Positions 8,487 through 53,179 of a stretch of 64,000 nt of DNA are shown here, in pieces (position 1 is the first letter of the stretch; each line of letters opens with the position of its first letter). The translations under genes and the position numbers were made by a program. The notes under the pieces are model-generated. The model did not search any database. It was not told the DNA's origin and worked only from the letters and a program-made list of their open reading frames with translations. Origin of the DNA: Trypanosoma brucei (taxonomy: Eukaryota); contig CM000208.1 in assembly GCA_000002445.1 (NCBI GenBank), forward strand, positions 2,464,001-2,528,000, read 5' to 3'.

Positions 8487-8523
<37 letters not shown>

Positions 8524-19372: not shown

Positions 19373-22065
19373 AACCACAGTGCAGGGTGCGCAGTGGATA
19401 ATTTGTGGAAAGGCTACCATCCGCGTCCGACCACGTTGTGACGGCCGAATGGTTTCCATCACGACATGGCTGCCCACGTATCACGACGAAACCGATAAGA
19501 GATTCGCAGGGTCCAATGGAAGGAGTGAAAAAAACGGGGTGAAGATGAGGAAAGAAAGGCAACACTTACGAGCATTCCGAAATTAAAGCCCGTGATACGG
19601 AGGAGCTGTGTCAAATTGCGAATGACGGAGACGATGTTGGGATACACCTCACAGCATTAAGCTGGGGTCGCCGTTCTCACTGGCATCCCTGGATGCGATA
19701 ACAAGGAGTTGGGCCATATCGGCGAAACGCTACCAGCAATAGCCGAGCTTTAAGCAGTAAGCGAGGAAAGCTGGTGCAACCGGGAACCCACCACTGGGTG
19801 TGCGACCGGGAAGGGAAGGAAATCCGCAGCCAGTTGGAGTTGGTATTCCAATGGTCGTCGGGCTACTTGGCCACTACCACCCGTACCTCAACCGCCTCAC
19901 ACACCCAACAGCATGCACTTACTCATGCACCAAGACGCATGAATAAATGCACTGGGAAGGTAAATAAATTCAGCTTTAAAAAAAAAAGATGAGCCAGGGA
20001 GATTACGTAAAAGGGGCTCATCCGCACCTCCCGCACACCGCAAAATAATAATAATAATAACGCTATGTTAAAAAGCACAAGCAACGGAAAAGCCTCTGCT
20101 TACATTTGTTAATGCACAGGCGCAGCGCAGCGGAGAGAACCCTGCAATTCTCCATGCGCAAAATCACTGTTCAACCGAAAGGGACGACACCCCGAGTGGC
20201 GCAAGTACGGCGGCCAGGGCATGTTTACAAACATGCGTTGAGTATGGCGACTCGACAATCCCCCAAAAATTATGAAAATGGGGGGCAGCAAGACCCGCAC
20301 CCACAACCCACACGGTTTTAGAGCAAACACGCCTACAGGCATCAAAAAAAGTAAAAAAAACTGGCACAGTCATAAAAGGTCCCAGCCGACTTTCCAGCAC
20401 GTTCTCCACCTTCACCTTTGAACGTTAGAAACATTACAACGGTGATCTGTGTGACGCACCTTTGTTAAATTACCCTTAAAAGATAGACAAAAAGCGAAGG
20501 ATCATTAGCGACGTCGCAATACAACCGAGTTTCCGCAACAACCGCAACGACACCCCATTTCCACACAATGCAAAACCGAAGGCAGCACTTCCTCACCACC
20601 CTTCCGCCTCCGCACTACTTGTCATGACCCCCCGCGTTGTCGCCCCCGTAGTGATACCGCTTCCGTGATTTCAAAGGACATAAACACTTACAAAACTGGT
20701 ACAAATCCCTGCACCATCAACATGATAGTGGTTGGCATACTTTCCAACCGCTGTGGTCTGAACTCGCACTACCTTCCCAACCTCTACAATCACACAAAGG
20801 GACAAAAAAATCAGAGGTTCTACTCCAACCTACGGCGTATTCAGTACCACAGCCCAGCATCCGAAGGGACAAAACACGCACCAACAACTCGGGCACGATT
20901 TACACCGTTCCCTCGCACCGACAAGCCACACAAACACCAAATTCATTACGAAATATAACCATCCCCTCACTAATACAAGGCGAAACAATAAGCATAATCA
21001 AACAGCTGACAGACAGAAATCCACCGCAGGGCTCAATGTAAGCTAACTTCGCCCTCCCCCTCCCTCACCCTATGGCCTCAGTGTTGCCCTGTAAAACCTT
21101 CTCTGACACTAGTCAAGCAGAGGTAAAAACTAACCTAACCCTAACACTCTCACACAATGAAAGGAGAATCCGTGGGGAATTTGGGAAAAGGCAAAGCACA
21201 CACGGTAAGCAGTCGGCACAACCCCTGGCGCAAAGAAGGCGCAACTGCACGCAAACAAGGCATTCGATTCAGTACCTTCTGTAGGATATGTGGGTTGCCA
21301 TACCGTAGGCAGTTACCAGTAACAGAAACGTATGGGGAAGGAAAGAATCAAAATATAGCTAAAGCTCCTCAACGCATATATATATACATATATTACCGTT
21401 TCACAGCCAATTCATACATCACACTTAACGCTCCCTCTAAACAACGACCCCAAACAATAACATCCCCAGGTACCTCACCAACAACAACAACAACACAATT
21501 CTTAATTAGCAAATATGGCTTCAATGGAGGCAAAGGAAGAAAGGAAGGACGTACACTCCAACTGTGAGATCCCGCTCGAATCAGCTGTAGCGACGAGAGT
21601 AGTTAACGGAAGGTCGACCCAGGGACCCACATCGCATCCCTACGCTGCCGTTAACATACCCTCAAGTGAAAATTAAAAAAAAAAATGGACCAAAAGTTGA
21701 TTTCAGCAAAAGTGCGTCCGAAAGAAAGGGCACGAAACAACAAACAGAAAATAATCAGCAGCAAAATAAATACATCACATTACGTGGCTATCACTGGACA
21801 CAACCAATAGTTGGTCAGCACGTGCCAGTAGTCGATCGACAAAATACATAATAATCAGCACAGTTAGCACAGGAGAGATAATATCAGCCCTTTCACGCAA
21901 CGCATTATCCACACTCACAACACGAAACAACTACGTTGAGGACAAACGAATGGCGCCACCCAATGGCATACTCCTGCGTACATTGATCTCCACAGTGCAG
22001 CACTCATACGTAAAGACCTTCCAATCACAGTTTAAAAAAGAGGAAAATACCGCTTCTCAAATATT

Positions 22066-25000
22066 CTACACCTTGCGACCCGAGTGATTAACGAAGGTTG
22101 CGCGGTTAGTCGTAACATACATCGAAGGGTCCACATGACGGACCTGTACTGCAGGTTTCCCAATGGGACGAGGAGGACATTGTACCTCAGGCCTGATAAA
22201 CCTGTTGCGGTATTCGCTGCTTACACCTTGCATAGAAATGCTTGACTGTTTAACAGTCGGAGCAGCCTTTGGCATATAAGGTTTGCTGGCACCGTGTGCC
22301 TTGAAATCTCTATGCGCGGTACTCACGTACATATCAGCATCTACATGACAAGGGCAGGAATAACCAACATTAGGGGCCTTTTTCCACTTTGACACACGTA
22401 CTCCGTTACCAGTTGGTTGATCGCCCACAGCCGCAGCAGCACACTCAGTAGTAGCTGCAACAGCCGCAGCAGCACCTCCATTACTCTCCCCACTTGCGAC
22501 ACACTTCATATCAGTGGAGACATCAACCTTCTTTGATGTCACACCACCATCACTTTTACCTTTCACGACCTTCTTAACAACAATAGCATCAGCTACAGAT
22601 GAAGCAGTAAAGCTATGCCTCTTAGATATAACAGATTCATCACCAAAGGAAGACTCCCTACACGAACTCTTATAACAAGAAGAATCATAGCGACAATACG
22701 AATCCTTTGCAGTTGTCCTAAAGTGGCCATCATCACCACCGCGACTTGACACTTTCACAACTTCCTCACGGAGCACATCACGCTTATATGCGGCAGGGTC
22801 AATTGGTGCATACGATTCTGCAGTGGTTGAGCGGAAGTGACTGGGATCAACATGACGAGGGCCCGTTGCCTCCTCTTCCTCACGGAGCACATCACGCTTA
22901 TATGCGGCAGGGTCAATTGGCGCATACGATTCTGCAGTGGTTGAGCGGAAGTGACTGGGATCAACATGACGAGGGCCCGTTGCCTCCTCTTCCTCACGGA
23001 GCACATCACGCTTATATGCGGCAGGGTCAATTGGCGCATACGATTCTGCAGTGGTTGAGCGGAAGTGACTGGGATCAACATGACGAGGGCCCGTTACCTC
23101 CTCTTCCTCACGGAGCACATCACGCTTATATGCGGCAGGGTCAATTGGCGCATACGATTCTGCAGTGGTTGAGCGGAAGTGACTGGGATCAACATGACGA
23201 GGGCCCGTTACCTCCTCTTCCTCACGGAGCACATCACGCTTATATGCGGCAGGGTCAATTGGTGCATACGATTCTGCAGTGGTTGAGCGGAAGTGACTGG
23301 GATCAACATGACGAGGGCCCGTTACCTCCTCTTCCTCACGGAGCACATCACGCTTATATGCGGCAGGGTCAATTGGTGCATGCGATTCTGCAGTGGTTGA
23401 GCGGAAGTGACTGGGGTCAACATGACGAGGGCCCGTTACCTCCTCTTCCTCACGGAGCACATCACGCTTATATGCGGCAGGGTCAATTGGCGCATACGAT
23501 TCTGCAGTGGTTGAGCGGAAGTGACTGGGGTCAACATGACGAGGGCCCGTTACCTCCTCTTCCTCACGGAGCACATCACGCTTATATGCGGCAGGGTCAA
23601 TTGGCGCATACGATTCTGCAGTGGTTGAGCGGAAGTGACTGGGGTCAACATGACGAGGGCCCGTTACCTCCTCTTCCTCACGGAGCACATCACGCTTATA
23701 TGCGGCAGGGTCAATTGGTGCATACGATTCTGCAGTGGTTGAGCGGAAGTGACTGGGGTCAACATGACGAGGGCCCGTTACCTCCTCTTCCTCACGGAGC
23801 ACATCACGCTTATATGCGGCAGGGTCAATTGGCGCATACGATTCTGCAGTGGTTGAGCGGAAGTGACTGGGGTCAACATGACGAGGGCCCGTTACCTCCT
23901 CTTCCTCACGGAGCACATCACGCTTATATGCGGCAGGGTCAATTGGCGCATACGATTCTGCAGTGGTTGAGCGGAAGTGACTGGGGTCAACATGACGAGG
24001 GCCCGTTACCTCCTCTTCCTCACGGAGCACATCACGCTTATATGCGGCAGGGTCAATTGGCGCATACGATTCTGCAGTGGTTGAGCGGAAGTGACTGGGA
24101 TCAACATGACGAGGGCCCGTTGCCTCCTCTTCCTCACGGAGCACATCACGCTTATATGCGGCAGGGTCAATTGGCGCATACGATTCTGCAGTGGTTGAGC
24201 GGAAGTGACTGGGATCAACATGACGAGGGCCCGTTACCTCCTCTTCCTCACGGAGCACATCACGCTTATATGCGGCAGGGTCAATTGGCGCATACGATTC
24301 TGCAGTGGTTGAGCGGAAGTGACTGGGGTCAACATGACGAGGGCCCGTTACCTCCTCTTCCTCACGGAGCACATCACGCTTATATGCGGCAGGGTCAATT
24401 GGCGCATACGATTCTGCAGTGGTTGAGCGGAAGTGACTGGGATCAACATGACGAGGGCCCGTTACCTCCTCTTCCTCACGGAGCACATCACGCTTATATG
24501 CGGCAGGGTCAATTGGCGCATACGATTCTGCAGTGGTTGAGCGGAAGTGACTGGGATCAACATGACGAGGGCCCGTTACCTCCTCTTCCTCACGGAGCAC
24601 ATCACGCTTATATGCGGCAGGGTCAATTGGCGCATACGATTCTGCAGTGGTTGAGCGGAAGTGACTGGGATCAACATGACGAGGGCCCGTTACCTCCTCT
24701 TCCTCACGGAGCACATCACGCTTATATGCGGCAGGGTCAATTGGTGCATACGATTCTGCAGTGGTTGAGCGGAAGTGACTGGGGTCAACATGACGAGGGC
24801 CCGTTACCTCCTCTTCCTCACGGAGCACATCACGCTTATATGCGGCAGGGTCAATTGGTGCATACGATTCTGCAGTGGTTGAGCGGAAGTGACTGGGGTC
24901 AACATGACGAGGGCCCGTTACCTCCTCTTCCTCACGGAGCACATCACGCTTATATGCGGCAGGGTCAATTGGCGCATACGATTCTGCAGTGGTTGAGCGG

Positions 25001-28000
25001 AAGTGACTGGGGTCAACATGACGAGGGCCCGTTACCTCCTCTTCCTCACGGAGCACATCACGCTTATATGCGGCAGGGTCAATTGGCGCATACGATTCTG
25101 CAGTGGTTGAGCGGAAGTGACTGGGGTCAACATGACGAGGGCCCGTTACCTCCTCTTCCTCACGGAGCACATCACGCTTATATGCGGCAGGGTCAATTGG
25201 TGCATACGATTCTGCAGTGGTTGAGCGGAAGTGACTGGGGTCAACATGACGAGGGCCCGTTACCTCCTCTTCCTCACGGAGCACATCACGCTTATATGCG
25301 GCAGGGTCAATTGGCGCATACGATTCTGCAGTGGTTGAGCGGAAGTGACTGGGATCAACATGACGAGGGCCCGTTACCTCCTCTTCCTCACGGAGCACAT
25401 CACGCTTATATGCGGCAGGGTCAATTGGCGCATACGATTCTGCAGTGGTTGAGCGGAAGTGACTGGGATCAACATGACGAGGGCCCGTTGCCTCCTCTTC
25501 CTCACGGAGCACATCACGCTTATATGCGGCAGGGTCAATTGGCGCATACGATTCTGCAGTGGTTGAGCGGAAGTGACTGGGATCAACATGACGAGGGCCC
25601 GTTACCTCCTCTTCCTCACGGAGCACATCACGCTTATATGCGGCAGGGTCAATTGGCGCATACGATTCTGCAGTGGTTGAGCGGAAGTGACTGGGGTCAA
25701 CATGACGAGGGCCCGTTACCTCCTCTTCCTCACGGAGCACATCACGCTTATATGCGGCAGGGTCAATTGGTGCATACGATTCTGCAGTGGTTGAGCGGAA
25801 GTGACTGGGATCAACATGACGAGGGCCCGTTACCTCCTCTTCCTCACGGAGCACATCACGCTTATATGCGGCAGGGTCAATTGGTGCATACGATTCTGCA
25901 GTGGTTGAGCGGAAGTGACTGGGATCAACATGACGAGGGCCCGTTACCTCCTCTTCCTCACGGAGCACATCACGCTTATATGCGGCAGGGTCAATTGGTG
26001 CATACGATTCTGCAGTGGTTGAGCGGAAGTGACTGGGGTCAACATGACGAGGGCCCGTTACCTCCTCTTCCTCACGGAGCACATCACGCTTATATGCGGC
26101 AGGGTCAATTGGCGCATACGATTCTGCAGTGGTTGAGCGGAAGTGACTGGGATCAACATGACGAGGGCCCGTTACCTCCTCTTCCTCACGGAGCACATCA
26201 CGCTTATATGCGGCAGGGTCAATTGGTGCATACGATTCTGCAGTGGTTGAGCGGAAGTGACTGGGGTCAACATGACGAGGGCCCGTTACCTCCTCTTCCT
26301 CACGGAGCACATCACGCTTATATGCGGCAGGGTCAATTGGCGCATACGATTCTGCAGTGGTTGAGCGGAAGTGACTGGGGTCAACATGACGAGGGCCCGT
26401 TACCTCCTCTTCCTCACGGAGCACATCACGCTTATATGCGGCAGGGTCAATTGGCGCATACGATTCTGCAGTGGTTGAGCGGAAGTGACTGGGATCAACA
26501 TGACGAGGGCCCGTTACCTCCTCTTCCTCACGGAGCACATCACGCTTATATGCGGCAGGGTCAATTGGCGCATACGATTCTGCAGTGGTTGAGCGGAAGT
26601 GACTGGGATCAACATGACGAGGGCCCGTTACCTCCTCTTCCTCACGGAGCACATCACGCTTATATGCGGCAGGGTCAATTGGCGCATACGATTCTGCAGT
26701 GGTTGAGCGGAAGTGACTGGGGTCAACATGACGAGGGCCCGTTACCTCCTCTTCCTCACGGAGCACATCACGCTTATATGCGGCAGGGTCAATTGGCGCA
26801 TACGATTCTGCAGTGGTTGAGCGGAAGTGACTGGGGTCAACATGACGAGGGCCCGTTACCTCCTCTTCCTCACGGAGCACATCACGCTTATATGCGGCAG
26901 GGTCAATTGGCGCATACGATTCTGCAGTGGTTGAGCGGAAGTGACTGGGGTCAACATGACGAGGGCCCGTTACCTCCTCTTCCTCACGGAGCACATCACG
27001 CTTATATGCGGCAGGGTCAATTGGCGCATACGATTCTGCAGTGGTTGAGCGGAAGTGACTGGGATCAACATGACGAGGGCCCGTTACCTCCTCTTCCTCA
27101 CGGAGCACATCACGCTTATATGCGGCAGGGTCAATTGGCGCATACGATTCTGCAGTGGTTGAGCGGAAGTGACTGGGGTCAACATGACGAGGGCCCGTTA
27201 CCTCCTCTTCCTCACGGAGCACATCACGCTTATATGCGGCAGGGTCAATTGGCGCATACGATTCTGCAGTGGTTGAGCGGAAGTGACTGGGATCAACATG
27301 ACGAGGGCCCGTTACCTCCTCTTCCTCACGGAGCACATCACGCTTATATGCGGCAGGGTCAATTGGTGCATACGATTCTGCAGTGGTTGAGCGGAAGTGA
27401 CTGGGGTCAACATGACGAGGGCCCGTTGCCTCCTCTTCCTCACGGAGCACATCACGCTTATATGCGGCAGGGTCAATTGGCGCATACGATTCTGCAGTGG
27501 TTGAGCGGAAGTGACTGGGATCAACATGACGAGGGCCCGTTGCCTCCTCTTCCTCACGGAGCACATCACGCTTATATGCGGCAGGGTCAATTGGTGCATA
27601 CGATTCTGCAGTGGTTGAGCGGAAGTGACTGGGATCAACATGACGAGGGCCCGTTACCTCCTCTTCCTCACGGAGCACATCACGCTTATATGCGGCAGGG
27701 TCAATTGGTGCATACGATTCTGCAGTGGTTGAGCGGAAGTGACTGGGGTCAACATGACGAGGGCCCGTTACCTCCTCTTCCTCACGGAGCACATCACGCT
27801 TATATGCGGCAGGGTCAATTGGTGCATACGATTCTGCAGTGGTTGAGCGGAAGTGACTGGGGTCAACATGACGAGGGCCCGTTACCTCCTCTTCCTTACG
27901 GAGCACATCACGCTTATATGCGGCAGGGTCAATTGGTGCATACGATTCTGCAGTGGTTGAGCGGAAGTGACTGGGGTCAACATGACGAGGGCCCGTTACC

Positions 28001-28839
28001 TCCTCTTCCTCACGGAGCACATCACGCTTATATGCGGCAGGGTCAATTGGTGCATACGATTCTGCAGTGGTTGAGCGGAAGTGACTGGGATCAACATGAC
28101 GAGGGCCCGTTACCTCCTCTTCCTCACGGAGCACATCACGCTTATATGCGGCAGGGTCAATTGGTGCATACGATTCTGCAGTGGTTGAGCGGAAGTGACT
28201 GGGGTCAACATGACGAGGGCCCGTTACCTCCTCTTCCTCACGGAGCACATCACGCTTATATGCGGCAGGGTCAATTGGTGCATACGATTCTGCAGTGGTT
28301 GAGCGGAAGTGACTGGGGTCAACATGACGAGGGCCCGTTACCTCCTCTTCCTCACGGAGCACATCACGCTTATATGCGGCAGGGTCAATTGGTGCATACG
28401 ATTCTGCAGTGGTTGAGCGGAAGTGACTGGGATCAACATGACGAGGGCCCGTTACCTCCTCTTCCTCACGGAGCATATCACGCTTATATGCGGCAGGGTC
28501 AATTGGTGCATACGATTCTGCAGTGGTTGAGCGGAAGTGACTGGGATCAACATGACGAGGGCCCGTTACCTCCTCTTCCTCACGGAGCATATCACGCTTA
28601 TATGCGGCAGGGTCAATTGGTGCATACGATTCTTTCATTGTGGAAAGTATTTCTTTATAATTTTGTTTATTTGCTTTTTGTTGTTTCATATAAAGGTTTT
28701 CAGTATTGTGCGGCAAACTTTTTTTTTTGTTTTTTATGTCGATGCAATCGTAGACCTCTGCTCTTTCTTTATCTCTTTGTGGATATGGTTGCGGATCATT
28801 CCACTTATAGTCTGCTTCTAATCCCTTTGTGCCAGGCAT
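22066..28839 (-). CDS. MARP: Microtubule-associated repetitive protein (MARP-type), copy A, 2257 aa. A short unique N-terminus is followed by about 50 near-identical 38-aa repeats (SYAPIDPAAYKRDVLREEEEVTGPRHVDPSHFRSTTAE) and a unique C-terminal domain of about 250 aa.
   Basis: The 38-aa repeat of the high-molecular-weight MARP-1/2 microtubule-associated proteins of T. brucei is recognisable, and the 114-bp nucleotide periodicity is visible across 22760-28630. The gene lies in the local - strand coding direction. The equally long + strand ORF is a mirror artefact. Confidence 0.85.
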   Translation of the reverse strand: MPGTKGLEADYKWNDPQPYPQRDKERAEVYDCIDIKNKKKSLPHNTENLYMKQQKANKQNYKEILSTMKESYAPIDPAAYKRDMLREEEEVTGPRHVDPSHFRSTTAESYAPIDPAAYKRDMLREEEEVTGPRHVDPSHFRSTTAESYAPIDPAAYKRDVLREEEEVTGPRHVDPSHFRSTTAESYAPIDPAAYKRDVLREEEEVTGPRHVDPSHFRSTTAESYAPIDPAAYKRDVLREEEEVTGPRHVDPSHFRSTTAESYAPIDPAAYKRDVLREEEEVTGPRHVDPSHFRSTTAESYAPIDPAAYKRDVLRKEEEVTGPRHVDPSHFRSTTAESYAPIDPAAYKRDVLREEEEVTGPRHVDPSHFRSTTAESYAPIDPAAYKRDVLREEEEVTGPRHVDPSHFRSTTAESYAPIDPAAYKRDVLREEEEATGPRHVDPSHFRSTTAESYAPIDPAAYKRDVLREEEEATGPRHVDPSHFRSTTAESYAPIDPAAYKRDVLREEEEVTGPRHVDPSHFRSTTAESYAPIDPAAYKRDVLREEEEVTGPRHVDPSHFRSTTAESYAPIDPAAYKRDVLREEEEVTGPRHVDPSHFRSTTAESYAPIDPAAYKRDVLREEEEVTGPRHVDPSHFRSTTAESYAPIDPAAYKRDVLREEEEVTGPRHVDPSHFRSTTAESYAPIDPAAYKRDVLREEEEVTGPRHVDPSHFRSTTAESYAPIDPAAYKRDVLREEEEVTGPRHVDPSHFRSTTAESYAPIDPAAYKRDVLREEEEVTGPRHVDPSHFRSTTAESYAPIDPAAYKRDVLREEEEVTGPRHVDPSHFRSTTAESYAPIDPAAYKRDVLREEEEVTGPRHVDPSHFRSTTAESYAPIDPAAYKRDVLREEEEVTGPRHVDPSHFRSTTAESYAPIDPAAYKRDVLREEEEVTGPRHVDPSHFRSTTAESYAPIDPAAYKRDVLREEEEVTGPRHVDPSHFRSTTAESYAPIDPAAYKRDVLREEEEVTGPRHVDPSHFRSTTAESYAPIDPAAYKRDVLREEEEVTGPRHVDPSHFRSTTAESYAPIDPAAYKRDVLREEEEVTGPRHVDPSHFRSTTAESYAPIDPAAYKRDVLREEEEATGPRHVDPSHFRSTTAESYAPIDPAAYKRDVLREEEEVTGPRHVDPSHFRSTTAESYAPIDPAAYKRDVLREEEEVTGPRHVDPSHFRSTTAESYAPIDPAAYKRDVLREEEEVTGPRHVDPSHFRSTTAESYAPIDPAAYKRDVLREEEEVTGPRHVDPSHFRSTTAESYAPIDPAAYKRDVLREEEEVTGPRHVDPSHFRSTTAESYAPIDPAAYKRDVLREEEEVTGPRHVDPSHFRSTTAESYAPIDPAAYKRDVLREEEEVTGPRHVDPSHFRSTTAESYAPIDPAAYKRDVLREEEEVTGPRHVDPSHFRSTTAESYAPIDPAAYKRDVLREEEEVTGPRHVDPSHFRSTTAESYAPIDPAAYKRDVLREEEEVTGPRHVDPSHFRSTTAESYAPIDPAAYKRDVLREEEEVTGPRHVDPSHFRSTTAESYAPIDPAAYKRDVLREEEEATGPRHVDPSHFRSTTAESYAPIDPAAYKRDVLREEEEVTGPRHVDPSHFRSTTAESYAPIDPAAYKRDVLREEEEVTGPRHVDPSHFRSTTAESYAPIDPAAYKRDVLREEEEVTGPRHVDPSHFRSTTAESYAPIDPAAYKRDVLREEEEVTGPRHVDPSHFRSTTAESYAPIDPAAYKRDVLREEEEVTGPRHVDPSHFRSTTAESYAPIDPAAYKRDVLREEEEVTGPRHVDPSHFRSTTAESHAPIDPAAYKRDVLREEEEVTGPRHVDPSHFRSTTAESYAPIDPAAYKRDVLREEEEVTGPRHVDPSHFRSTTAESYAPIDPAAYKRDVLREEEEVTGPRHVDPSHFRSTTAESYAPIDPAAYKRDVLREEEEATGPRHVDPSHFRSTTAESYAPIDPAAYKRDVLREEEEATGPRHVDPSHFRSTTAESYAPIDPAAYKRDVLREEVVKVSSRGGDDGHFRTTAKDSYCRYDSSCYKSSCRESSFGDESVISKRHSFTASSVADAIVVKKVVKGKSDGGVTSKKVDVSTDMKCVASGESNGGAAAAVAATTECAAAAVGDQPTGNGVRVSKWKKAPNVGYSCPCHVDADMYVSTAHRDFKAHGASKPYMPKAAPTVKQSSISMQGVSSEYRNRFIRPEVQCPPRPIGKPAVQVRHVDPSMYVTTNRATFVNHSGRKV
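22760..28630. repeat. Tandem array of 114-bp units (MARP repeat array A)
   Basis: An exact 114-bp period is visible. Three biallelic positions per unit (ggcgca/ggtgca, gggatc/ggggtc, ccgttac/ccgttgc) occur in mosaic combinations. Confidence 0.9.
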
Positions 28840-29169
28840 CCTTCCTTTGGTATTTTTGATTCCTATTTATTGTAAGTAGTTTTTACACTTATATTTCTGA
28901 AGGTAAGATGCTTCTTTTTCTTAGGTGATTTATGGATATTGAGTAGAGAAATTATATCCTGCAGAGGGGTGTGTGGTAAATTATCTTACAGCGAATATTC
29001 TAATTTTTTTTCATCATTTGGGGTTGAGTTAGCGGATATTAAGGTATACTTTTGGTGTTCAGTCATCACAGTTCCTTGTGGAAGGTGTTACTCATGCAAA
29101 TACACGTGACGTTAGGCGTTTGAGAAACTGCCTCCTTTTCTACATCTACTGACTGGCAACCGCTGGTCG

Positions 29170-29742
29170 TTACATTTGGGTTCTCGCGCCACAGTTCCTT
29201 CCCGCGGACAACTGTCTTTGCACGTGGTGGTTTAAAATGGTGACATCCATAGCAGACTTTGTTGTGCGAAATCGGTCAACCATGGCATCATCTACTGTTG
29301 GTTGGTTTACTGGTTTGGACAGTTTCCCAGTTAGTGCAAAGCGGTCTACGCCGCTGAGCGTGTTTAACGGTTTGCAATGGTGCTTTGGCTTCCCATACCT
29401 GCTATCAATCAGGTATCGCTGTGTGGCGCCATAGTCTTTGCTTGTTGCCACCACTTCATCGACTGTTGGTAGGCCGCTTCCAAATATAAGGCTCTTCCCG
29501 AGTCCACGCTGCCGCAACATCGGCCGGACAGCTGTAACACATGGGGTAGAGTAATCAGCCTTATAAACTGAGGACGGCAGCGGAGATTGGCCGTCTACTG
29601 CGATCGTGAATTTGCCATGCGCCTCATTGATGCGTGCGTCGAACCAGTTATCTACGAGGACACCGCTGTTGTAATGGTTGTCAAAACATGGAAGAACTCG
29701 CTTGTCCCCGGTGTGCATGCTGGCGCCTGCAACCGATTCCAC
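29170..29742 (-). CDS. Hypothetical 190-aa protein, copy A. An identical copy lies at 52607-53179.
   Basis: The ORF is conserved perfectly within both copies of the duplication and sits upstream of each MARP gene. No recognisable domain. Confidence 0.5.
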   Translation of the reverse strand: MESVAGASMHTGDKRVLPCFDNHYNSGVLVDNWFDARINEAHGKFTIAVDGQSPLPSSVYKADYSTPCVTAVRPMLRQRGLGKSLIFGSGLPTVDEVVATSKDYGATQRYLIDSRYGKPKHHCKPLNTLSGVDRFALTGKLSKPVNQPTVDDAMVDRFRTTKSAMDVTILNHHVQRQLSAGRNCGARTQM

Positions 29743-30374
29743 TCACCCCAGAGCTTTGTGCTGCCTAGCACTGAGGATTCACCTAAATTACAGTGCAATC
29801 GGCTCAGTCACATGGTGTAACACGAGTGTGGTTGCGGTTCAAAGGGAATGGTGAGAGAAGAAAAAAAGTGTAAAACCCCCGTCGAGGAGATCCCACAAGG
29901 GTGGAGAGAGGAAGGAGTGGCATGTAGCCAAACTACAGGCAAGGAATACACGCAAGGCGCCTTTAATCCAGGCGGAGGCAGTTGTATACCGTCAGCGGAA
30001 CTAAACCGGCCCCACTCAAGCAGTTGATAATAAAGAAGGCAGAAGGGGAATATTTAATTACGCCTGAGGGGATCTATTTCACCCTGTGAAACGCACTGGC
30101 GGTTATCACAACATATCAGTTGTAGGCCAAGCACGAGCATCCCCAGGCCACCGTCTGTACACTTCTTCGCGAAAAACTATTTCTTCGAAATACGGTCTTC
30201 CAACGGATTATGGAGGCTCATCCTTGGTATCCTTTTTCTGATCGTACGAGCGTACGCACATCATTTGATCGGTGTGGTTGAACTGCTTCCCAACCTTCAT
30301 TCATACCTCTTCGGTTTGCCTAATAACGAGGTGAAAAAAAAAAATTGTCCATTTTCCTTCGCCCGTGCAGTTCA

Positions 30375-44801: not shown

Positions 44802-45958
44802 CACCAAAAAAAACAACTTCACACAAAACAAAGAATAAGCTCCTTGGCAACGCTACCACAAAAGAATAAGTACAGAATACAAAAAAAAAAGAGCGAAAAA
44901 GCTGTAGCGAAATCCACCGCAGGGCTCAATGTAAGCTAACTTCGCCCTCCCCCTCCCTCACCCTATGGCCTCAGTGTTGCCCTGTAAAACCTTCTCTGAC
45001 ACTAGTCAAGCAGAGGTAAAAACTAACCTAACCCTAACACTCTCACACAATGAAAGGAGAATCCGTGGGGAATTTGGGAAAAGGCAAAGCACACACGGTA
45101 AGCAGTCGGCACAACCCCTGGCGCAAAGAAGGCGCAACTGCACGCAAACAAGGCATTCGATTCAGTACCTTCTGTAGGATATGTGGGTTGCCATACCGTA
45201 GGCAGTTACCAGTAACAGAAACGTATGGGGAAGGAAAGAATCAAAATATAGCTAAAGCTCCTCAACGCATATATATATATATATATTACCGTTTCACAGC
45301 CAATTCATACATCACACTTAACGCTCCCTCTAAACAACGACCCCAAACAATAACATCCCCAGGTACCTCACCAACAACAACAACAACACAATTCTTAATT
45401 AGCAAATATGGCTTCAATGGAGGCAAAGGAAGAAAGGAAGGACGTACACTCCAACTGTGAGATCCCGCTCGAATCAGCTGTAGCGACGAGAGTAGTTAAC
45501 GGAAGGTCGACCCAGGGACCCACATCGCATCCCTACGCTGCCGTTAACATACCCTCAAGTGAAAATTAAAAAAAAAAATGGACCAAAAGTTGATTTCAGC
45601 AAAAGTGCGTCCGAAAGAAAGGGCACGAAACAACAAACAGAAAATAATCAGCAGCAAAATAAATACATCACATTACGTGGCTATCACTGGACACAACCAA
45701 TAGTTGGTCAGCACGTGCCAGTAGTCGATCGACAAAATACATAATAATCAGCACAGTTAGCACAGGAGAGATAATATCAGCCCTTTCACGCAACGCATTA
45801 TCCACACTCACAACACGAAACAACTACGTTGAGGACAAACGAATGGCGCCACCCAATGGCATACTCCTGCGTACATTGATCTCCACAGTGCAGCACTCAT
45901 ACGTAAAGACCTTCCAATCACAGTTTAAAAAAGAGGAAAATACCGCTTCTCAAATATT

Positions 45959-48900
45959 CTACACCTTGCGACCCGAGTGATTAACGAAGGTTGCGCGGTT
46001 AGTCGTAACATACATCGAAGGGTCCACATGACGGACCTGTACTGCAGGTTTCCCAATGGGACGAGGAGGACATTGTACCTCAGGCCTGATAAACCTGTTG
46101 CGGTATTCGCTGCTTACACCTTGCATAGAAATGCTTGACTGTTTAACAGTCGGAGCAGCCTTTGGCATATAAGGTTTGCTGGCACCGTGTGCCTTGAAAT
46201 CTCTATGCGCGGTACTCACGTACATATCAGCATCTACATGACAAGGGCAGGAATAACCAACATTAGGGGCCTTTTTCCACTTTGACACACGTACTCCGTT
46301 ACCAGTTGGTTGATCGCCCACAGCCGCAGCAGCACACTCAGTAGTAGCTGCAACAGCCGCAGCAGCACCTCCATTACTCTCCCCACTTGCGACACACTTC
46401 ATATCAGTGAAGACATCAACCTTCTTGGATGTCACACCACCATCACTTTTACCTTTCACGACCTTCTTAACAACAATAGCATCAGCTTCAGATGAAGCAG
46501 TAAAGCTATGCCTCATAGACATAACAGATTCATCACCAAAGGAAGACTCCCTACACGAACTCTTATAACAAGAAGAATCATAGCGACAATACGAATCCTT
46601 TGCAGTTGTCCTAAAGTGGCCATCATCACCACCGCGACGTGACACTTTCACAACTTCCTCACGGAGCACATCACGCTTATATGCGGCAGGGTCAATTGGC
46701 GCATACGATTCTGCAGTGGTTGAGCGGGAGTGACTGGGATCAACATGACGAGGGCCCGTTACCTCCTCTTCCTCACGGAGCACATCACGCTTATATGCGG
46801 CAGGGTCAATTGGCGCATACGATTCTGCAGTGGTTGAGCGGAAGTGACTGGGGTCAACATGACGAGGGCCCGTTACCTCCTCTTCCTCACGGAGCACATC
46901 ACGCTTATATGCGGCAGGGTCAATTGGCGCATACGATTCTGCAGTGGTTGAGCGGAAGTGACTGGGATCAACATGACGAGGGCCCGTTGCCTCCTCTTCC
47001 TCACGGAGCACATCACGCTTATATGCGGCAGGGTCAATTGGCGCATACGATTCTGCAGTGGTTGAGCGCAAGTGACTGGGATCAACATGACGAGGGCCCG
47101 TTGCCTCCTCTTCCTCACGGAGCACATCACGCTTATATGCGGCAGGGTCAATTGGCGCATACGATTCTGCAGTGGTTGAGCGGAAGTGACTGGGATCAAC
47201 ATGACGAGGGCCCGTTGCCTCCTCTTCCTCACGGAGCACATCACGCTTATATGCGGCAGGGTCAATTGGCGCATACGATTCTGCAGTGGTTGAGCGGAAG
47301 TGACTGGGATCAACATGACGAGGGCCCGTTGCCTCCTCTTCCTCACGGAGCACATCACGCTTATATGCGGCAGGGTCAATTGGCGCATACGATTCTGCAG
47401 TGGTTGAGCGGAAGTGACTGGGATCAACATGACGAGGGCCCGTTACCTCCTCTTCCTCACGGAGCACATCACGCTTATATGCGGCAGGGTCAATTGGTGC
47501 ATACGATTCTGCAGTGGTTGAGCGGAAGTGACTGGGGTCAACATGACGAGGGCCCGTTACCTCCTCTTCCTCACGGAGCACATCACGCTTATATGCGGCA
47601 GGGTCAATTGGCGCATACGATTCTGCAGTGGTTGAGCGGAAGTGACTGGGATCAACATGACGAGGGCCCGTTACCTCCTCTTCCTCACGGAGCACATCAC
47701 GCTTATATGCGGCAGGGTCAATTGGTGCATACGATTCTGCAGTGGTTGAGCGGAAGTGACTGGGATCAACATGACGAGGGCCCGTTACCTCCTCTTCCTC
47801 ACGGAGCACATCACGCTTATATGCGGCAGGGTCAATTGGTGCATACGATTCTGCAGTGGTTGAGCGGAAGTGACTGGGGTCAACATGACGAGGGCCCGTT
47901 ACCTCCTCTTCCTCACGGAGCACATCACGCTTATATGCGGCAGGGTCAATTGGTGCATACGATTCTGCAGTGGTTGAGCGGAAGTGACTGGGGTCAACAT
48001 GACGAGGGCCCGTTACCTCCTCTTCCTCACGGAGCACATCACGCTTATATGCGGCAGGGTCAATTGGCGCATACGATTCTGCAGTGGTTGAGCGGAAGTG
48101 ACTGGGATCAACATGACGAGGGCCCGTTACCTCCTCTTCCTCACGGAGCACATCACGCTTATATGCGGCAGGGTCAATTGGCGCATACGATTCTGCAGTG
48201 GTTGAGCGGAAGTGACTGGGATCAACATGACGAGGGCCCGTTACCTCCTCTTCCTCACGGAGCACATCACGCTTATATGCGGCAGGGTCAATTGGCGCAT
48301 ACGATTCTGCAGTGGTTGAGCGGAAGTGACTGGGGTCAACATGACGAGGGCCCGTTACCTCCTCTTCCTCACGGAGCACATCACGCTTATATGCGGCAGG
48401 GTCAATTGGCGCATACGATTCTGCAGTGGTTGAGCGGAAGTGACTGGGGTCAACATGACGAGGGCCCGTTACCTCCTCTTCCTCACGGAGCACATCACGC
48501 TTATATGCGGCAGGGTCAATTGGCGCATACGATTCTGCAGTGGTTGAGCGGAAGTGACTGGGGTCAACATGACGAGGGCCCGTTACCTCCTCTTCCTCAC
48601 GGAGCACATCACGCTTATATGCGGCAGGGTCAATTGGCGCATACGATTCTGCAGTGGTTGAGCGGAAGTGACTGGGGTCAACATGACGAGGGCCCGTTAC
48701 CTCCTCTTCCTCACGGAGCACATCACGCTTATATGCGGCAGGGTCAATTGGTGCATACGATTCTGCAGTGGTTGAGCGGAAGTGACTGGGGTCAACATGA
48801 CGAGGGCCCGTTACCTCCTCTTCCTCACGGAGCACATCACGCTTATATGCGGCAGGGTCAATTGGCGCATACGATTCTGCAGTGGTTGAGCGGAAGTGAC

Positions 48901-51900
48901 TGGGGTCAACATGACGAGGGCCCGTTACCTCCTCTTCCTCACGGAGCACATCACGCTTATATGCGGCAGGGTCAATTGGCGCATACGATTCTGCAGTGGT
49001 TGAGCGGAAGTGACTGGGATCAACATGACGAGGGCCCGTTACCTCCTCTTCCTCACGGAGCACATCACGCTTATATGCGGCAGGGTCAATTGGTGCATAC
49101 GATTCTGCAGTGGTTGAGCGGAAGTGACTGGGGTCAACATGACGAGGGCCCGTTACCTCCTCTTCCTCACGGAGCACATCACGCTTATATGCGGCAGGGT
49201 CAATTGGCGCATACGATTCTGCAGTGGTTGAGCGGAAGTGACTGGGATCAACATGACGAGGGCCCGTTACCTCCTCTTCCTCACGGAGCACATCACGCTT
49301 ATATGCGGCAGGGTCAATTGGCGCATACGATTCTGCAGTGGTTGAGCGGAAGTGACTGGGGTCAACATGACGAGGGCCCGTTACCTCCTCTTCCTCACGG
49401 AGCACATCACGCTTATATGCGGCAGGGTCAATTGGTGCATACGATTCTGCAGTGGTTGAGCGGAAGTGACTGGGGTCAACATGACGAGGGCCCGTTACCT
49501 CCTCTTCCTCACGGAGCACATCACGCTTATATGCGGCAGGGTCAATTGGTGCATACGATTCTGCAGTGGTTGAGCGGAAGTGACTGGGATCAACATGACG
49601 AGGGCCCGTTGCCTCCTCTTCCTCACGGAGCACATCACGCTTATATGCGGCAGGGTCAATTGGCGCATACGATTCTGCAGTGGTTGAGCGGAAGTGACTG
49701 GGATCAACATGACGAGGGCCCGTTACCTCCTCTTCCTCACGGAGCACATCACGCTTATATGCGGCAGGGTCAATTGGTGCATACGATTCTGCAGTGGTTG
49801 AGCGGAAGTGACTGGGGTCAACATGACGAGGGCCCGTTGCCTCCTCTTCCTCACGGAGCACATCACGCTTATATGCGGCAGGGTCAATTGGCGCATACGA
49901 TTCTGCAGTGGTTGAGCGGAAGTGACTGGGATCAACATGACGAGGGCCCGTTACCTCCTCTTCCTCACGGAGCACATCACGCTTATATGCGGCAGGGTCA
50001 ATTGGCGCATACGATTCTGCAGTGGTTGAGCGGAAGTGACTGGGATCAACATGACGAGGGCCCGTTACCTCCTCTTCCTCACGGAGCACATCACGCTTAT
50101 ATGCGGCAGGGTCAATTGGCGCATACGATTCTTCAGTGGTTGAGCGGAAGTGACTGGGATCAACATGACGAGGGCCCGTTACCTCCTCTTCCTCACGGAG
50201 CACATCACGCTTATATGCGGCAGGGTCAATTGGTGCATACGATTCTGCAGTGGTTGAGCGGAAGTGACTGGGATCAACATGACGAGGGCCCGTTACCTCC
50301 TCTTCCTCACGGAGCACATCACGCTTATATGCGGCAGGGTCAATTGGTGCATGCGATTCTGCAGTGGTTGAGCGGAAGTGACTGGGGTCAACATGACGAG
50401 GGCCCGTTACCTCCTCTTCCTCACGGAGCACATCACGCTTATATGCGGCAGGGTCAATTGGTGCATACGATTCTGCAGTGGTTGAGCGGAAGTGACTGGG
50501 GTCAACATGACGAGGGCCCGTTACCTCCTCTTCCTCACGGAGCACATCACGCTTATATGCGGCAGGGTCAATTGGCGCATACGATTCTGCAGTGGTTGAG
50601 CGGAAGTGACTGGGGTCAACATGACGAGGGCCCGTTACCTCCTCTTCCTCACGGAGCACATCACGCTTATATGCGGCAGGGTCAATTGGCGCATACGATT
50701 CTGCAGTGGTTGAGCGGAAGTGACTGGGGTCAACATGACGAGGGCCCGTTACCTCCTCTTCCTCACGGAGCACATCACGCTTATATGCGGCAGGGTCAAT
50801 TGGCGCATACGATTCTGCAGTGGTTGAGCGGAAGTGACTGGGGTCAACATGACGAGGGCCCGTTACCTCCTCTTCCTCACGGAGCACATCACGCTTATAT
50901 GCGGCAGGGTCAATTGGCGCATACGATTCTGCAGTGGTTGAGCGGAAGTGACTGGGATCAACATGACGAGGGCCCGTTACCTCCTCTTCCTCACGGAGCA
51001 CATCACGCTTATATGCGGCAGGGTCAATTGGTGCATACGATTCTGCAGTGGTTGAGCGGAAGTGACTGGGGTCAACATGACGAGGGCCCGTTACCTCCTC
51101 TTCCTCACGGAGCACATCACGCTTATATGCGGCAGGGTCAATTGGCGCATACGATTCTGCAGTGGTTGAGCGGAAGTGACTGGGATCAACATGACGAGGG
51201 CCCGTTACCTCCTCTTCCTCACGGAGCACATCACGCTTATATGCGGCAGGGTCAATTGGTGCATACGATTCTGCAGTGGTTGAGCGGAAGTGACTGGGGT
51301 CAACATGACGAGGGCCCGTTGCCTCCTCTTCCTCACGGAGCACATCACGCTTATATGCGGCAGGGTCAATTGGCGCATACGATTCTGCAGTGGTTGAGCG
51401 GAAGTGACTGGGATCAACATGACGAGGGCCCGTTGCCTCCTCTTCCTCACGGAGCACATCACGCTTATATGCGGCAGGGTCAATTGGTGCATACGATTCT
51501 GCAGTGGTTGAGCGGAAGTGACTGGGATCAACATGACGAGGGCCCGTTACCTCCTCTTCCTCACGGAGCACATCACGCTTATATGCGGCAGGGTCAATTG
51601 GTGCATACGATTCTGCAGTGGTTGAGCGGAAGTGACTGGGGTCAACATGACGAGGGCCCGTTACCTCCTCTTCCTCACGGAGCACATCACGCTTATATGC
51701 GGCAGGGTCAATTGGTGCATACGATTCTGCAGTGGTTGAGCGGAAGTGACTGGGGTCAACATGACGAGGGCCCGTTACCTCCTCTTCCTCACGGAGCACA
51801 TCACGCTTATATGCGGCAGGGTCAATTGGTGCATACGATTCTGCAGTGGTTGAGCGGAAGTGACTGGGATCAACATGACGAGGGCCCGTTACCTCCTCTT

Positions 51901-52276: not shown

Positions 52277-52606
52277 CCTTCCTTTGGTATTTTTGATTCC
52301 TATTTATTGTAAGTAGTTTTTACACTTATATTTCTGAAGGTAAGATGCTTCTTTTTCTTAGGTGATTTATGGATATTGAGTAGAGAAATTATATCCTGCA
52401 GAGGGGTGTGTGGTAAATTATCTTACAGCGAATATTCTAATTTTTTTTCATCATTTGGGGTTGAGTTAGCGGATATTAAGGTATACTTTTGGTGTTCAGT
52501 CATCACAGTTCCTTGTGGAAGGTGTTACTCATGCAAATACACGTGACGTTAGGCGTTTGAGAAACTGCCTCCTTTTCTACATCTACTGACTGGCAACCGC
52601 TGGTCG

Positions 52607-53179
52607 TTACATTTGGGTTCTCGCGCCACAGTTCCTTCCCGCGGACAACTGTCTTTGCACGTGGTGGTTTAAAATGGTGACATCCATAGCAGACTTTGTT
52701 GTGCGAAATCGGTCAACCATGGCATCATCTACTGTTGGTTGGTTTACTGGTTTGGACAGTTTCCCAGTTAGTGCAAAGCGGTCTACGCCGCTGAGCGTGT
52801 TTAACGGTTTGCAATGGTGCTTTGGCTTCCCATACCTGCTATCAATCAGGTATCGCTGTGTGGCGCCATAGTCTTTGCTTGTTGCCACAACTTCATCGAC
52901 TGTTGGTAGGCCGCTTCCAAATATAAGGCTCTTCCCGAGTCCACGCTGCCGCAACATCGGCCGGACAGCTGTAACACATGGGGTAGAGTAATCAGCCTTA
53001 TAAACTGAGGACGGCAGCGGAGATTGGCCGTCTACTGCGATCGTGAATTTGCCATGCGCCTCATTGATGCGTGCGTCGAACCAGTTATCTACGAGGACAC
53101 CGCTGTTGTAATGGTTGTCAAAACATGGAAGAACTCGCTTGTCCCCGGTGTGCATGCTGGCGCCTGCAACCGATTCCAC
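52607..53179 (-). CDS. Hypothetical 190-aa protein, copy B (identical to 29170-29742)
   Basis: Identical ORF in the duplicated segment. Confidence 0.5.
   Translation of the reverse strand: MESVAGASMHTGDKRVLPCFDNHYNSGVLVDNWFDARINEAHGKFTIAVDGQSPLPSSVYKADYSTPCVTAVRPMLRQRGLGKSLIFGSGLPTVDEVVATSKDYGATQRYLIDSRYGKPKHHCKPLNTLSGVDRFALTGKLSKPVNQPTVDDAMVDRFRTTKSAMDVTILNHHVQRQLSAGRNCGARTQM

What the first reader, a model, noticed from the sequence alone, without database searches (positions are those of the whole stretch)
22760..28630. MARP 114-bp arrays are mosaics of three biallelic sites, pointing to concerted evolution by gene conversion
Each 114-bp unit varies almost only at three positions. At the protein level these are V/A in EEEE[V/A]TGP plus two synonymous changes. 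Together they give up to eight haplotypes, arranged in non-periodic order that differs between arrays A and B. The two 5'-most units of both arrays share a private variant (gagcatatcacg). Edge units are anchored while the interior is shuffled, which is classic for unequal crossover and conversion. The repeat count (about 50 versus about 46) is therefore probably polymorphic. The array is in frame for its entire length on the opposite strand as well; that is a repeat artefact.
Basis: seen in the sequence. Interest (0 to 1): 0.5.

Follow-up and report, generated by a model that had tools for sequence, protein, structure and literature searches.

The report
MARP repeat arrays: three-site mosaic
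The two long 114-bp repeat arrays are the coding repeats of a known trypanosome microtubule-binding protein (MARP). Their units do differ almost only at three recurring sites, an ordinary signature of repeats kept alike by recombination, but unit order, unit count and the placement of the second array may partly reflect genome assembly.

Summary
Array A (22761-28633) has 51 full units and array B (46654-52070) has 47. Of 111 minor-allele instances, 103 fall at unit positions 47, 86 and 108. Seven of the eight possible haplotypes occur, with no higher-order period.

The coding strand is minus. The window is Trypanosoma brucei TREU927 chromosome 10, and array A lies upstream of the EP procyclin genes. 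The unit is the MARP-2 type.

Arrays from T. b. gambiense DAL972 and T. b. equiperdum IVM-t1 show the marks of concerted evolution:
- a difference fixed across all units (position 11);
- reversed allele frequencies at position 108;
- shared polymorphic sites;
- copy numbers from 36 to 56 or more.

Three corrections apply:
- A and B share unit order significantly, and their first 13 gene-5' units are collinear.
- Only the gene-5' edge is shared between A and B.
- Gene conversion cannot be separated from unequal exchange.

The main caveat concerns array B. It sits at the locus the literature calls MARP-1, which has a different repeat in two other strains. B may therefore be a misplaced allele or misassembly, and unit order and count in Sanger-era assemblies can be arbitrary.

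Verdict: real and ordinary, already known in kind.

The parts
22761..28633 (-). Array A: 51 full 114-bp units plus a 59-nt truncated unit at the gene-5' end. Each unit encodes the 38-aa repeat EVTGPRHVDPSHFRSTTAESYAPIDPAAYKRDVLREEE (MARP-2 type).
   Evidence: TRF; unit table; frame.
22066..28839 (-). MARP gene A (2257 aa, 254.6 kDa), at the position of Tb927.10.10280 / MARP-2. It has a 69-aa N-terminal domain, the array, and a ~230-aa C-terminal domain that contains decayed repeat units.
   Evidence: ORF; termini; molecular weight; degenerate units in the C-terminus; it lies upstream of the EP procyclin genes.
46654..52070 (-). Array B: 47 full units plus a 59-nt truncated unit. It has the same unit type and the same allele frequencies as A.
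45959..52276 (-). MARP gene B (2105 aa, 237.5 kDa), at the position of Tb927.10.10360, next to the MORN kinase. Its N-terminus is identical to A. Its C-terminal domain differs from A at 5 residues, 2 of which match MARP-1 orthologues.
21016..29951 (.). Segmental duplication, copy A (gene plus flanks). The 3' side is 99.39% identical to copy B and the 5' side 99.87%.
   Evidence: Self-BLAST with the arrays masked.
44909..53388 (.). Segmental duplication, copy B. The same flank boundaries exist in IVM-t1, where the interior is MARP-1.
28461..28633 (-). Gene-5' edge of array A: the last full unit plus the truncated unit. Both carry 16T (Val to Met, KRDML).
51898..52070 (-). Gene-5' edge of array B, carrying the same private Val-to-Met variant.
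26637..28574 (-). Block of array A (17 units) collinear with B 50530-52011 (13 units). The two differ by one 4-unit indel (about 27891-28346) and one difference at site 47 (27139 C versus 51032 T).
   Evidence: Unit-level alignments.
50530..52011 (-). Block of array B collinear with the gene-5' third of array A.
22647..22760 (-). Decayed repeat unit immediately 3' of array A (47 of 114 bases match the consensus; protein ...GDDGHFRTTAKDSYCRYDSSCYK...). The B equivalent is 46540-46653.
22746..28859 (+). Spurious antisense ORF of 2037 aa across array A (the B equivalent is 46639-52296). It is open only because the 114-bp unit has no stop codon in that frame.
   Evidence: Six of 7 common variants are non-synonymous in this frame (and direct reading).

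Best explanation
The arrays are the coding minisatellites of the Trypanosoma brucei microtubule-associated repetitive protein, MARP-2 type. Each 114-bp unit encodes one 38-aa microtubule-binding repeat.

Homologous recombination between misaligned units keeps the units nearly identical. The likely processes are unequal sister-chromatid or allelic exchange, replication slippage and short-tract conversion. Purifying selection on the peptide acts alongside them.

A few old variants persist and are carried from unit to unit. Most are silent third-position changes; one is a Val/Ala change in the poorly conserved acidic linker. This produces a non-periodic mosaic of recombinant haplotypes. It also produces drifting variant frequencies, occasional fixation across the whole array, changes in copy number, and diverged or decayed units at the array margins.

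Shown here: the mosaic, the recombinant haplotypes, homogeneity within a genome against divergence between strains, whole-unit indels, and edge divergence. Inferred: the molecular process and its continuing activity.
For: - **Concentration of variants.** 103 of 111 variant instances fall at 3 positions.
- **Recombinant haplotypes.** All four allele combinations occur for every site pair, with r2 at most 0.10 over 22-61 bp.
- **Fixed difference between strains.** Position 11 is G in 98/98 TREU927 units, A in 92/92 DAL972 units and A in 52/53 IVM-t1 units. The single IVM-t1 exception is the 3'-most unit.
- **Shifted frequencies.** Position 108 is A in 86% of TREU927 units but G in at least 94% elsewhere. 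Sites 47 and 86 are polymorphic in more than one strain.
- **Divergence.** Mean unit difference is 1.3-1.5 within TREU927, 1.39 between A and B, and 3.2-3.6 between strains. Flanks are about 1% diverged.
- **Events between A and B.** Whole-unit indels, plus a single difference in the 13-unit collinear block that falls exactly on polymorphic site 47.
- **Local clustering.** Runs tests give P=0.0075 for site 47 in array A, and P=0.025 (A) and 0.012 (B) for site 108.
- **Edge effects.** The truncated 5' unit carries 47T in all five arrays, including IVM-t1 where T is absent from the interior. There are edge-private variants (16T in TREU927; 8G+104T in DAL972 and IVM-t1) and decayed units in the C-terminal domain.
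- **Selection.** Six of 7 common variants are silent, and all 6 rare TREU927 variants change an amino acid.
- **Precedent.** Concerted evolution with gene conversion is documented for T. brucei tandem gene arrays (PMC1855330).
Against: - Unit order and unit number come from assemblies in which they may be arbitrary. The DAL972 paper says so explicitly (PMC2854126).
- The IVM-t1 array is riddled with 1-bp homopolymer deletions.
- No direct measurement of exchange exists.
- The identical allele frequencies in A and B are equally expected if both arrays were built from one pool of reads.
- The sites are not in full equilibrium: 108G is tied to 86A in the adjacent unit 14 times out of 14. Part of the mosaic may therefore reflect a few large blocks rather than frequent short conversions.
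Confidence: 0.75

Rival explanations
1. Assembly product. The three-site variation among units is real. However, the unit order, the counts of 51.5 and 47.5, and above all the placement of a MARP-2-type N-terminus and array at the B locus come from assembling short Sanger reads. Those reads derive from several near-identical arrays (two alleles, two loci) flanked by 1-1.75 kb of 99-99.9% identical sequence. On this reading B would be the second MARP-2 allele, or a chimera, and the true B locus would carry MARP-1.
For: - MARP-1's published repeat contains HVDESHF and PIDPSEYRQK, and is not the window unit.
- Tb927.10.10360 is called MARP-1. It is reported as 374 kDa, with repeats about 50% identical to those of Tb927.10.10280 (267-268 kDa). 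The window encodes 237.5 and 254.6 kDa, with identical repeats and identical N-termini.
- In IVM-t1 and DAL972 the gene next to the kinase has a different N-terminus (MYEKKKQQ...) and MARP-1 units.
- DAL972 shows a MARP-2 contig sitting between gaps inside MARP-1. Its contigs were ordered against TREU927.
- A and B have indistinguishable allele frequencies and no array-specific common variant.
- The rare 52G unit sits in the same local context about 27 units apart in the two arrays.
Against: - B has its own singletons (60T, 74C, 75G).
- B has six B-specific differences in the first 250 bp of the C-terminal domain, directly abutting MARP-2 units and so within one read length.
- Two of those differences match MARP-1 orthologues, as expected for a true chimera at the B locus.
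- All units are exactly 114 bp with no ambiguous bases.
- I could not inspect reads or the current TriTrypDB sequence.
Confidence: 0.5
2. Real interlocus replacement. In TREU927, gene conversion or double crossover used the conserved 5' flank (about 1 kb) and 3' flank (about 1.75 kb) to overwrite the interior of the MARP-1 locus with MARP-2 sequence. The two arrays then diverged through unit indels and patch conversions.
For: - The duplication boundaries are the same as in IVM-t1, where the interiors differ.
- The flanks are homogenised between loci in every strain, so interlocus exchange clearly occurs.
- B's C-terminal domain keeps MARP-1-like residues 14 bp from the array.
- The 5' third of A and B is collinear, with the discrete differences expected after a recent copy event.
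Against: It has the same conflicts with the literature as above: reported sizes, ~50% repeat identity, and distinct N-termini for these gene IDs. There is no independent TREU927 data. Two other strains keep MARP-1 at this locus.
Confidence: 0.3
3. Recurrent mutation. Positions 47, 86 and 108 are hypermutable and mutated independently in many units, with no exchange between units.
For: All three changes are transitions. Position 47 is a C in a CpG on the + strand (direct reading of the unit).
Against: - Minor-allele counts of 40, 49 and 14 compare with at most 2 at any other position, other CpGs included.
- The same sites segregate in other strains at very different frequencies, and position 11 is fixed differently.
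- Alleles cluster spatially, and blocks of units are shared between arrays.
Confidence: 0.02
4. One-off amplification. The array expanded recently from a small set of already recombinant founder units and has been static since, so there is no continuing homogenisation.
For: Only 13 distinct 114-mers exist among 98 units. The A and B allele frequencies are alike.
Against: - No higher-order period, which block amplification would leave.
- Different copy numbers and different majority haplotypes occur in three strains that are only about 1% diverged in the flanks.
- A derived variant (11A) is fixed throughout the interior but not at the IVM-t1 edge unit.
Confidence: 0.1

Closest known systems
MARP-2 (Tb927.10.10280, TbKHAP3, BBP268) of Trypanosoma brucei
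   Same: It has 38-aa / 114-bp near-identical tandem repeats with short non-repetitive N- and C-terminal domains. It lies directly upstream of the EP/PAG1 procyclin locus on chromosome 10. The flanking proteins are identical to TREU927 entries.
   Different: The window's gene A encodes 254.6 kDa, against 267-268 kDa reported for this gene ID, so the array length differs between sequence versions. The three-site haplotype mosaic did not appear in the papers I could search.
MARP-1 (Tb927.10.10360, TbKHAP2) of Trypanosoma brucei
   Same: Gene B has the same chromosomal position, next to the MORN-kinase gene. It shares the conserved C-terminal domain, and two B-specific residues (Ser to Arg, Val to Glu) match MARP-1 orthologues.
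   Different: The MARP-1 unit is GEEVTTDMRHVDESHFLTTTHEAYKPIDPSEYRQKRTV, with an N-terminus beginning MYEKKKQQ. The window's gene B has MARP-2 units and the MARP-2 N-terminus, and encodes 237.5 kDa rather than 374 kDa.
Concerted evolution of tandem gene arrays in T. brucei (Jackson 2007, PMC1855330)
   Same: Homogenisation occurs within a genome, with allelic and ectopic gene conversion invoked. Concern about misassembly is raised explicitly.
   Different: That work concerns arrays of whole genes. This is an intragenic, in-frame 114-bp repeat. MARP is not mentioned there.
38-aa-repeat microtubule-associated proteins of other trypanosomes (T. cruzi, T. theileri, T. grayi)
   Same: They share the core motif PRHVDP.HFRSTTQ.AY.P.DPSAYKR and a conserved C-terminal domain. 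The T. grayi protein also alternates V and A at the same linker position.
   Different: They are only 36-37% identical overall. The database entries are short (321-439 aa), probably from collapsed arrays, with more diverged units.
Coding minisatellites in general, such as yeast FLO1, human MUC1 and Plasmodium CSP repeats (from my own knowledge)
   Same: These are in-frame tandem repeats with variable copy number, unit mosaics and diverged edge units, evolving by unequal exchange and conversion.
   Different: The MARP unit is unusually long and unusually uniform: about 1.2% mean difference over 5-6 kb.

Membership tests
MARP (microtubule-associated repetitive protein) genes of T. brucei | A long tandem array of 38-aa (114-bp) near-identical repeats in one ORF | tested here: met
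   51.5 and 47.5 copies at 98-99% matches with no indels. The minus-strand ORFs are 2257 and 2105 aa.
MARP (microtubule-associated repetitive protein) genes of T. brucei | Location upstream of the EP/PAG1 procyclin locus on chromosome 10 (MARP-2) | tested here: met
   EP procyclin ORFs lie at 17078-17503 and 15759-16148 on the same strand, downstream of gene A. PAG4, GU2 and the other neighbours are identical to TREU927 proteins. PMC2731899 places MARP upstream of EP/PAG1.
MARP (microtubule-associated repetitive protein) genes of T. brucei | Repeat sequence of the MARP-1 type (HVDESHF...PIDPSEYRQK) | tested here: not met
   The window unit is HVDPSHF...PIDPAAYKRD in both arrays. The MARP-1 strings occur in the MARP-1 paper and in the IVM-t1 and DAL972 B-locus genes. 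Both window arrays are therefore MARP-2 type.
MARP (microtubule-associated repetitive protein) genes of T. brucei | Microtubule binding by the repeats and the C-terminal domain | not testable with these tools
   Known from the literature only (abstract of PMC2289396; preprint).
Concerted evolution of a tandem array | Units more alike within a genome than between genomes, with differences fixed across all units | tested here: met
   Mean differences are 1.3-1.5 within TREU927 and 3.2-3.6 between strains. Position 11 is G in 98/98 units versus A in 92/92 and 52/53.
Concerted evolution of a tandem array | Recombinant unit haplotypes (four-gamete test) and shared polymorphic sites | tested here: met
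   All site pairs show all four combinations, with r2 at most 0.10. Sites 47, 86 and 108 also segregate in DAL972, and sites 86 and 108 in IVM-t1.
Concerted evolution of a tandem array | Copy-number variation between arrays and strains | tested here: inconclusive
   Counts are 51.5, 47.5, 36.5, at least 56, and 53.5. However, assembled counts can be arbitrary, and one array ends at a gap.
Concerted evolution of a tandem array | Edge units escape homogenisation | tested here: met
   16T occurs only in the two 5'-most units. 47T is in the truncated edge unit of all five arrays. 8G+104T marks the first unit of DAL972-A and IVM-t1-A. The IVM-t1 3'-most unit keeps 11G. Decayed units lie in the C-terminal domain.
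Gene conversion specifically (as opposed to unequal crossover or slippage) | Non-reciprocal short patches transferred without change of register or copy number | tested here: inconclusive
   One single-site difference at polymorphic site 47 lies inside an otherwise identical 13-unit block, which is suggestive. Whole-unit indels dominate the A-B differences, and the order may be assembly-dependent.

The most novel reading that the evidence does not exclude
In strain TREU927 the MARP-1 locus (Tb927.10.10360) truly carries a MARP-2 N-terminus and a 47-unit MARP-2 array. An interlocus conversion of about 6.5 kb between paralogues 24 kb apart, primed by their homogenised flanks, would have overwritten it. 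On this reading the strain has two MARP-2 genes and no MARP-1, and concerted evolution acts across loci as well as within arrays.
Probability: 0.3. Interest if true: 0.4.

Novelty: already known. Interest (0 to 1): 0.2.

Why it matters
- **For trypanosome work.** The MARP arrays in this reference sequence should not be trusted for unit order, unit number or paralogue identity. This affects tagging and RNAi design, assignment of proteomic peptides (MARP1/2 peptides are already reported ambiguously), and the use of MARP repeats as diagnostic antigens.
- **For evolution.** The array is a clean example of concerted evolution in a coding minisatellite. Its three markers all fit within one short read, so haplotype frequencies could be measured in hundreds of isolates without any assembly.
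- **What it does not do.** It opens no new question about mechanism.

Tried and rejected
- **Exact-protein look-ups.** Look-ups of gene A, the SMC ORF from its GTG start, and the kinase found no encoding contig. The source was identified instead through cluster look-ups.
- **Homologue searches.** Two searches returned only 3-4 proteins. They missed the long repetitive MARPs, including the DAL972 2245-aa protein, which is absent from the collection. No TREU927 MARP sequence could be retrieved for comparison.
- **XP_823257.1 residue ranges.** I tried the ranges quoted in PMC12921242 (K112-M149, E378-E427) to infer which repeat type that RefSeq protein has. Neither type fits and the paper prints no peptide sequence, so I dropped this line.
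- **OVI contig.** The T. equiperdum OVI contig breaks at both arrays. Its first 40 nt belong to the part of the last unit shared by MARP-1 and MARP-2, so it says nothing about array type.
- **5' flank.** It carries no locus-diagnostic sites; both A-B differences are private to A. It cannot show whether B's interior is real.
- **Other searches.** Pfam has no family for the repeat. The repeat finder on the whole window only restated the array. The body text of the 1992 MARP-1 paper is not readable here, only searchable.
- **Recurrent-mutation reading.** Considered and rejected; see the rival explanations.

Full report
**What is there**

Tandem Repeats Finder reports two 114-bp arrays: A at 22761-28633 (51.5 copies) and B at 46654-52070 (47.5 copies). 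Both show 98-99% matches and no indels.

Cutting them in register gives 51 and 47 full units. Variation is concentrated at three unit positions (+ strand phase from 22761):

| Position | Array A | Array B |
|---|---|---|
| 47 | C30/T21 | C28/T19 |
| 86 | G26/A25 | A24/G23 |
| 108 | A45/G6 | A39/G8 |

Only eight further variant instances exist, at positions 7, 16, 52, 60, 74 and 75. With 103 of 111 minor-allele instances on 3 of 114 positions, independent random mutation is excluded.

Seven of the eight haplotypes occur: CAA 26, CGA 23, TGA 23, TAA 12, CAG 9, TGG 3, TAG 2. CGG is absent.

**Coding strand**

The unit is open in one frame on each strand. The minus frame gives EVTGPRHVDPSHFRSTTAESYAPIDPAAYKRDVLREEE. 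It continues into real N- and C-terminal domains, giving ORFs 22066-28839 (2257 aa) and 45959-52276 (2105 aa).

On that frame position 47 is GCG/GCA (Ala), position 86 is GAC/GAT (Asp) and position 108 is GTA/GCA (Val/Ala).

Taking all variants that are common in any strain, 6 of 7 are silent on the minus frame and only 1 of 7 on the plus frame (and direct reading). Homologues from T. cruzi, T. theileri and T. grayi match the minus-frame peptide.

**Identity of the locus**

Nine flanking window proteins are identical to T. b. brucei TREU927 chromosome 10 entries. Four of them match TREU927 alone.

Two EP procyclin genes lie downstream of gene A on the same strand. PAG4 and GU2 follow. This matches the published map, in which a MARP gene precedes the EP/PAG1 locus (PMC2731899).

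MARP proteins consist of tandem 38-aa microtubule-binding repeats (PMC2289396 abstract). The strings HVDESHF and PIDPSEYRQK occur in the MARP-1 paper. The window unit is therefore the other type, MARP-2. No Pfam family covers it.

**Evidence for concerted evolution**

I retrieved three more MARP-2 arrays:
- DAL972 A locus, 36 units (L009).
- A DAL972 contig of 56 units, bounded by a gap (L001).
- IVM-t1 A locus, 53 units (L005). This is a long-read-type sequence with many 1-bp homopolymer deletions.

| Feature | TREU927 | DAL972 | IVM-t1 |
|---|---|---|---|
| Position 11 | G in 98/98 | A in 92/92 | A in 52/53 |
| Position 108 | A in 86% | G in at least 94% | G in at least 94% |
| Site 47 | polymorphic | polymorphic | C only in interior units |
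| Site 86 | polymorphic | polymorphic | polymorphic |
| Sites 2, 8, 104 | invariant | polymorphic | polymorphic |

Mean pairwise unit difference is 1.33-1.50 within TREU927, 1.39 between A and B, 3.6 against DAL972 and 3.2 against IVM-t1. Flanking DNA is about 1% diverged.

Within TREU927, every pair of the three sites shows all four allele combinations, with r2 at most 0.10. Units have therefore exchanged segments.

Equilibrium is not complete. A G at position 108 is followed, on the + strand, by A at position 86 of the next unit in 14 of 14 cases (r=-0.42, P=1.4e-5). That matches the majority haplotype of the other strains, so this variant seems to travel in tracts of about one unit or more.

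Alleles also cluster locally. Runs tests give P=0.0075 for site 47 in A, and P=0.025 and 0.012 for site 108. No higher-order period exists at lags 1-12.

**Edges**

GAGCATATCACG occurs exactly four times, in the last full unit and the truncated unit at the gene-5' end of each array. It changes Val to Met.

Other edge effects:
- The truncated 5' unit carries 47T in all five arrays, even in IVM-t1 where T is absent from the interior.
- The first full unit of DAL972-A and IVM-t1-A shares a private 8G+104T pair.
- The 3'-most IVM-t1 unit keeps 11G.
- The C-terminal domain contains decayed copies of the unit.

Edge escape is therefore real. Between A and B, however, only the 5' edge is shared. The 3'-terminal units differ.

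**A versus B**

The arrays lie in a segmental duplication, 21016-29951 versus 44909-53388. The flanks are 99.39% and 99.87% identical.

An affine unit-level alignment scores 8.0, against -12.6 +/- 4.0 for shuffles; none of 500 shuffles reached it. The first 13 gene-5' units of B equal A units 1-2 and 7-17, apart from a 4-unit indel and one difference that falls exactly on polymorphic site 47. Further in, the alignment needs many whole-unit indels.

The rare 52G unit appears in both arrays in the same local context but about 27 units apart.

The differences are mostly whole-unit gains and losses, with one conversion-like patch. Conversion cannot be separated from unequal exchange on this evidence.

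**The main caveat**

Gene B sits next to the MORN kinase, at the position of Tb927.10.10360. The literature calls that gene MARP-1: 374 kDa, with repeats about 50% identical to MARP-2 and C-termini 95% identical. Tb927.10.10280 is reported as MARP-2 at 267-268 kDa.

The window encodes 237.5 and 254.6 kDa, with identical repeats and identical N-termini.

In IVM-t1 the kinase-proximal gene has a different N-terminus (MYEKKKQQ...) and MARP-1 units. Yet its 5' and 3' flank homologies to the A locus have exactly the same boundaries as in the window.

In DAL972 the same locus has MARP-1 5' and 3' parts, with a MARP-2 contig lying between two gaps. Those contigs were ordered against TREU927. [quoted passage not shown]

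Array B is therefore one of two things:
- a misplaced second allele or a chimeric assembly (my estimate about 0.5);
- a genuine interlocus replacement in TREU927 (about 0.3).

In favour of a real B:
- it has its own singletons;
- it has six B-specific differences within 250 bp of the array, two of which match MARP-1 orthologues;
- these lie within one read length of MARP-2 units.

The 5' flank is uninformative. I could not obtain reads or the current TriTrypDB sequence.

Whichever is true, the unit haplotypes are robust, because all three sites lie within 62 bp. The order, the count and the 'between copies' comparison are not.

**Verdict**

Its reading as concerted evolution is well supported and is strengthened by the cross-strain data. 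Several points need correcting:
- the specific mechanism is not resolved;
- the 'anchored edges' claim is only half right;
- the arrays are not independently ordered;
- the assembly may be responsible for part of the picture.

The gene family and its near-identical repeats have been known since 1988-1994, and concerted evolution of repeats is textbook. The finding is real but ordinary. The only mildly novel thread is the MARP-2-type array at the MARP-1 locus.

Noticed in passing
window 45959-53388 (gene B and flanks); L003 6813-8852; L001 566-2636 and 9928-11251: Gene B occupies the locus the literature calls MARP-1 (Tb927.10.10360), but it carries the MARP-2 N-terminus and MARP-2 units. In IVM-t1 and DAL972 the gene at this position has a different N-terminus (MYEKKKQQ...) and MARP-1 units. 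This is either a real interlocus replacement or an assembly artefact.
   Followed up: partly
window 46400-46640 (equivalent to A coordinates 22517-22746): The C-terminal domain of gene B differs from A at 5 residues within about 80 aa, just 3' of the array. S>R and V>E match MARP-1 orthologues. I>M, K>M and S>F are private to B, and a sixth B-private nucleotide difference was not checked for coding effect. The next 1.1 kb is identical between A and B.
   Followed up: partly
window 15759-16148 and 17078-17503 (minus strand): Two EP procyclin genes (129 and 141 aa). The CAGGTT hexamer arrays at 15830-15987 and 17149-17331 are their (Glu-Pro)n coding repeats. The two genes are 89% identical over about 450-480 bp (15757-16203 versus 17076-17559).
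   Followed up: yes
window 7396-9086: A convergent strand switch lies between GU2 (5987-7396, +) and PAG4 (9086-10207, -), with an (AT)18 tract at 8485-8522. This corresponds to the procyclin-locus strand-switch region studied in PMC2731899.
   Followed up: no
window 29170-29742 and 52607-53179 (minus strand): A 190-aa ORF lies inside the duplicated 5' flank of each MARP gene. It is annotated as a 182-aa hypothetical protein in DAL972 and IVM-t1. It is kept 99.9% identical between the two loci in every strain examined.
   Followed up: no
L005 13527-19597 (IVM-t1 A-locus array): About half of the 53 units are 113 bp or shorter because of single-base deletions in homopolymer runs. These are typical uncorrected long-read errors. 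No gene is called there. In contrast, the MARP-1 array in the same assembly (L003) is clean but has only 9.7 units.
   Followed up: partly
P0048 (T. grayi MAP homologue): Its repeats alternate EEEVGPRHVDP and EEEAGPRHVDP. This is a V/A alternation at the same linker position as the T. brucei Val/Ala site.
   Followed up: no
window arrays A and B, + strand positions 108 of unit i and 86 of unit i+1: The strongest association among markers is across a unit boundary, 92 bp apart (14 of 14, P=1.4e-5). It is stronger than between sites 22 bp apart in the same unit. The conventional unit phase therefore hides the real haplotype block.
   Followed up: partly
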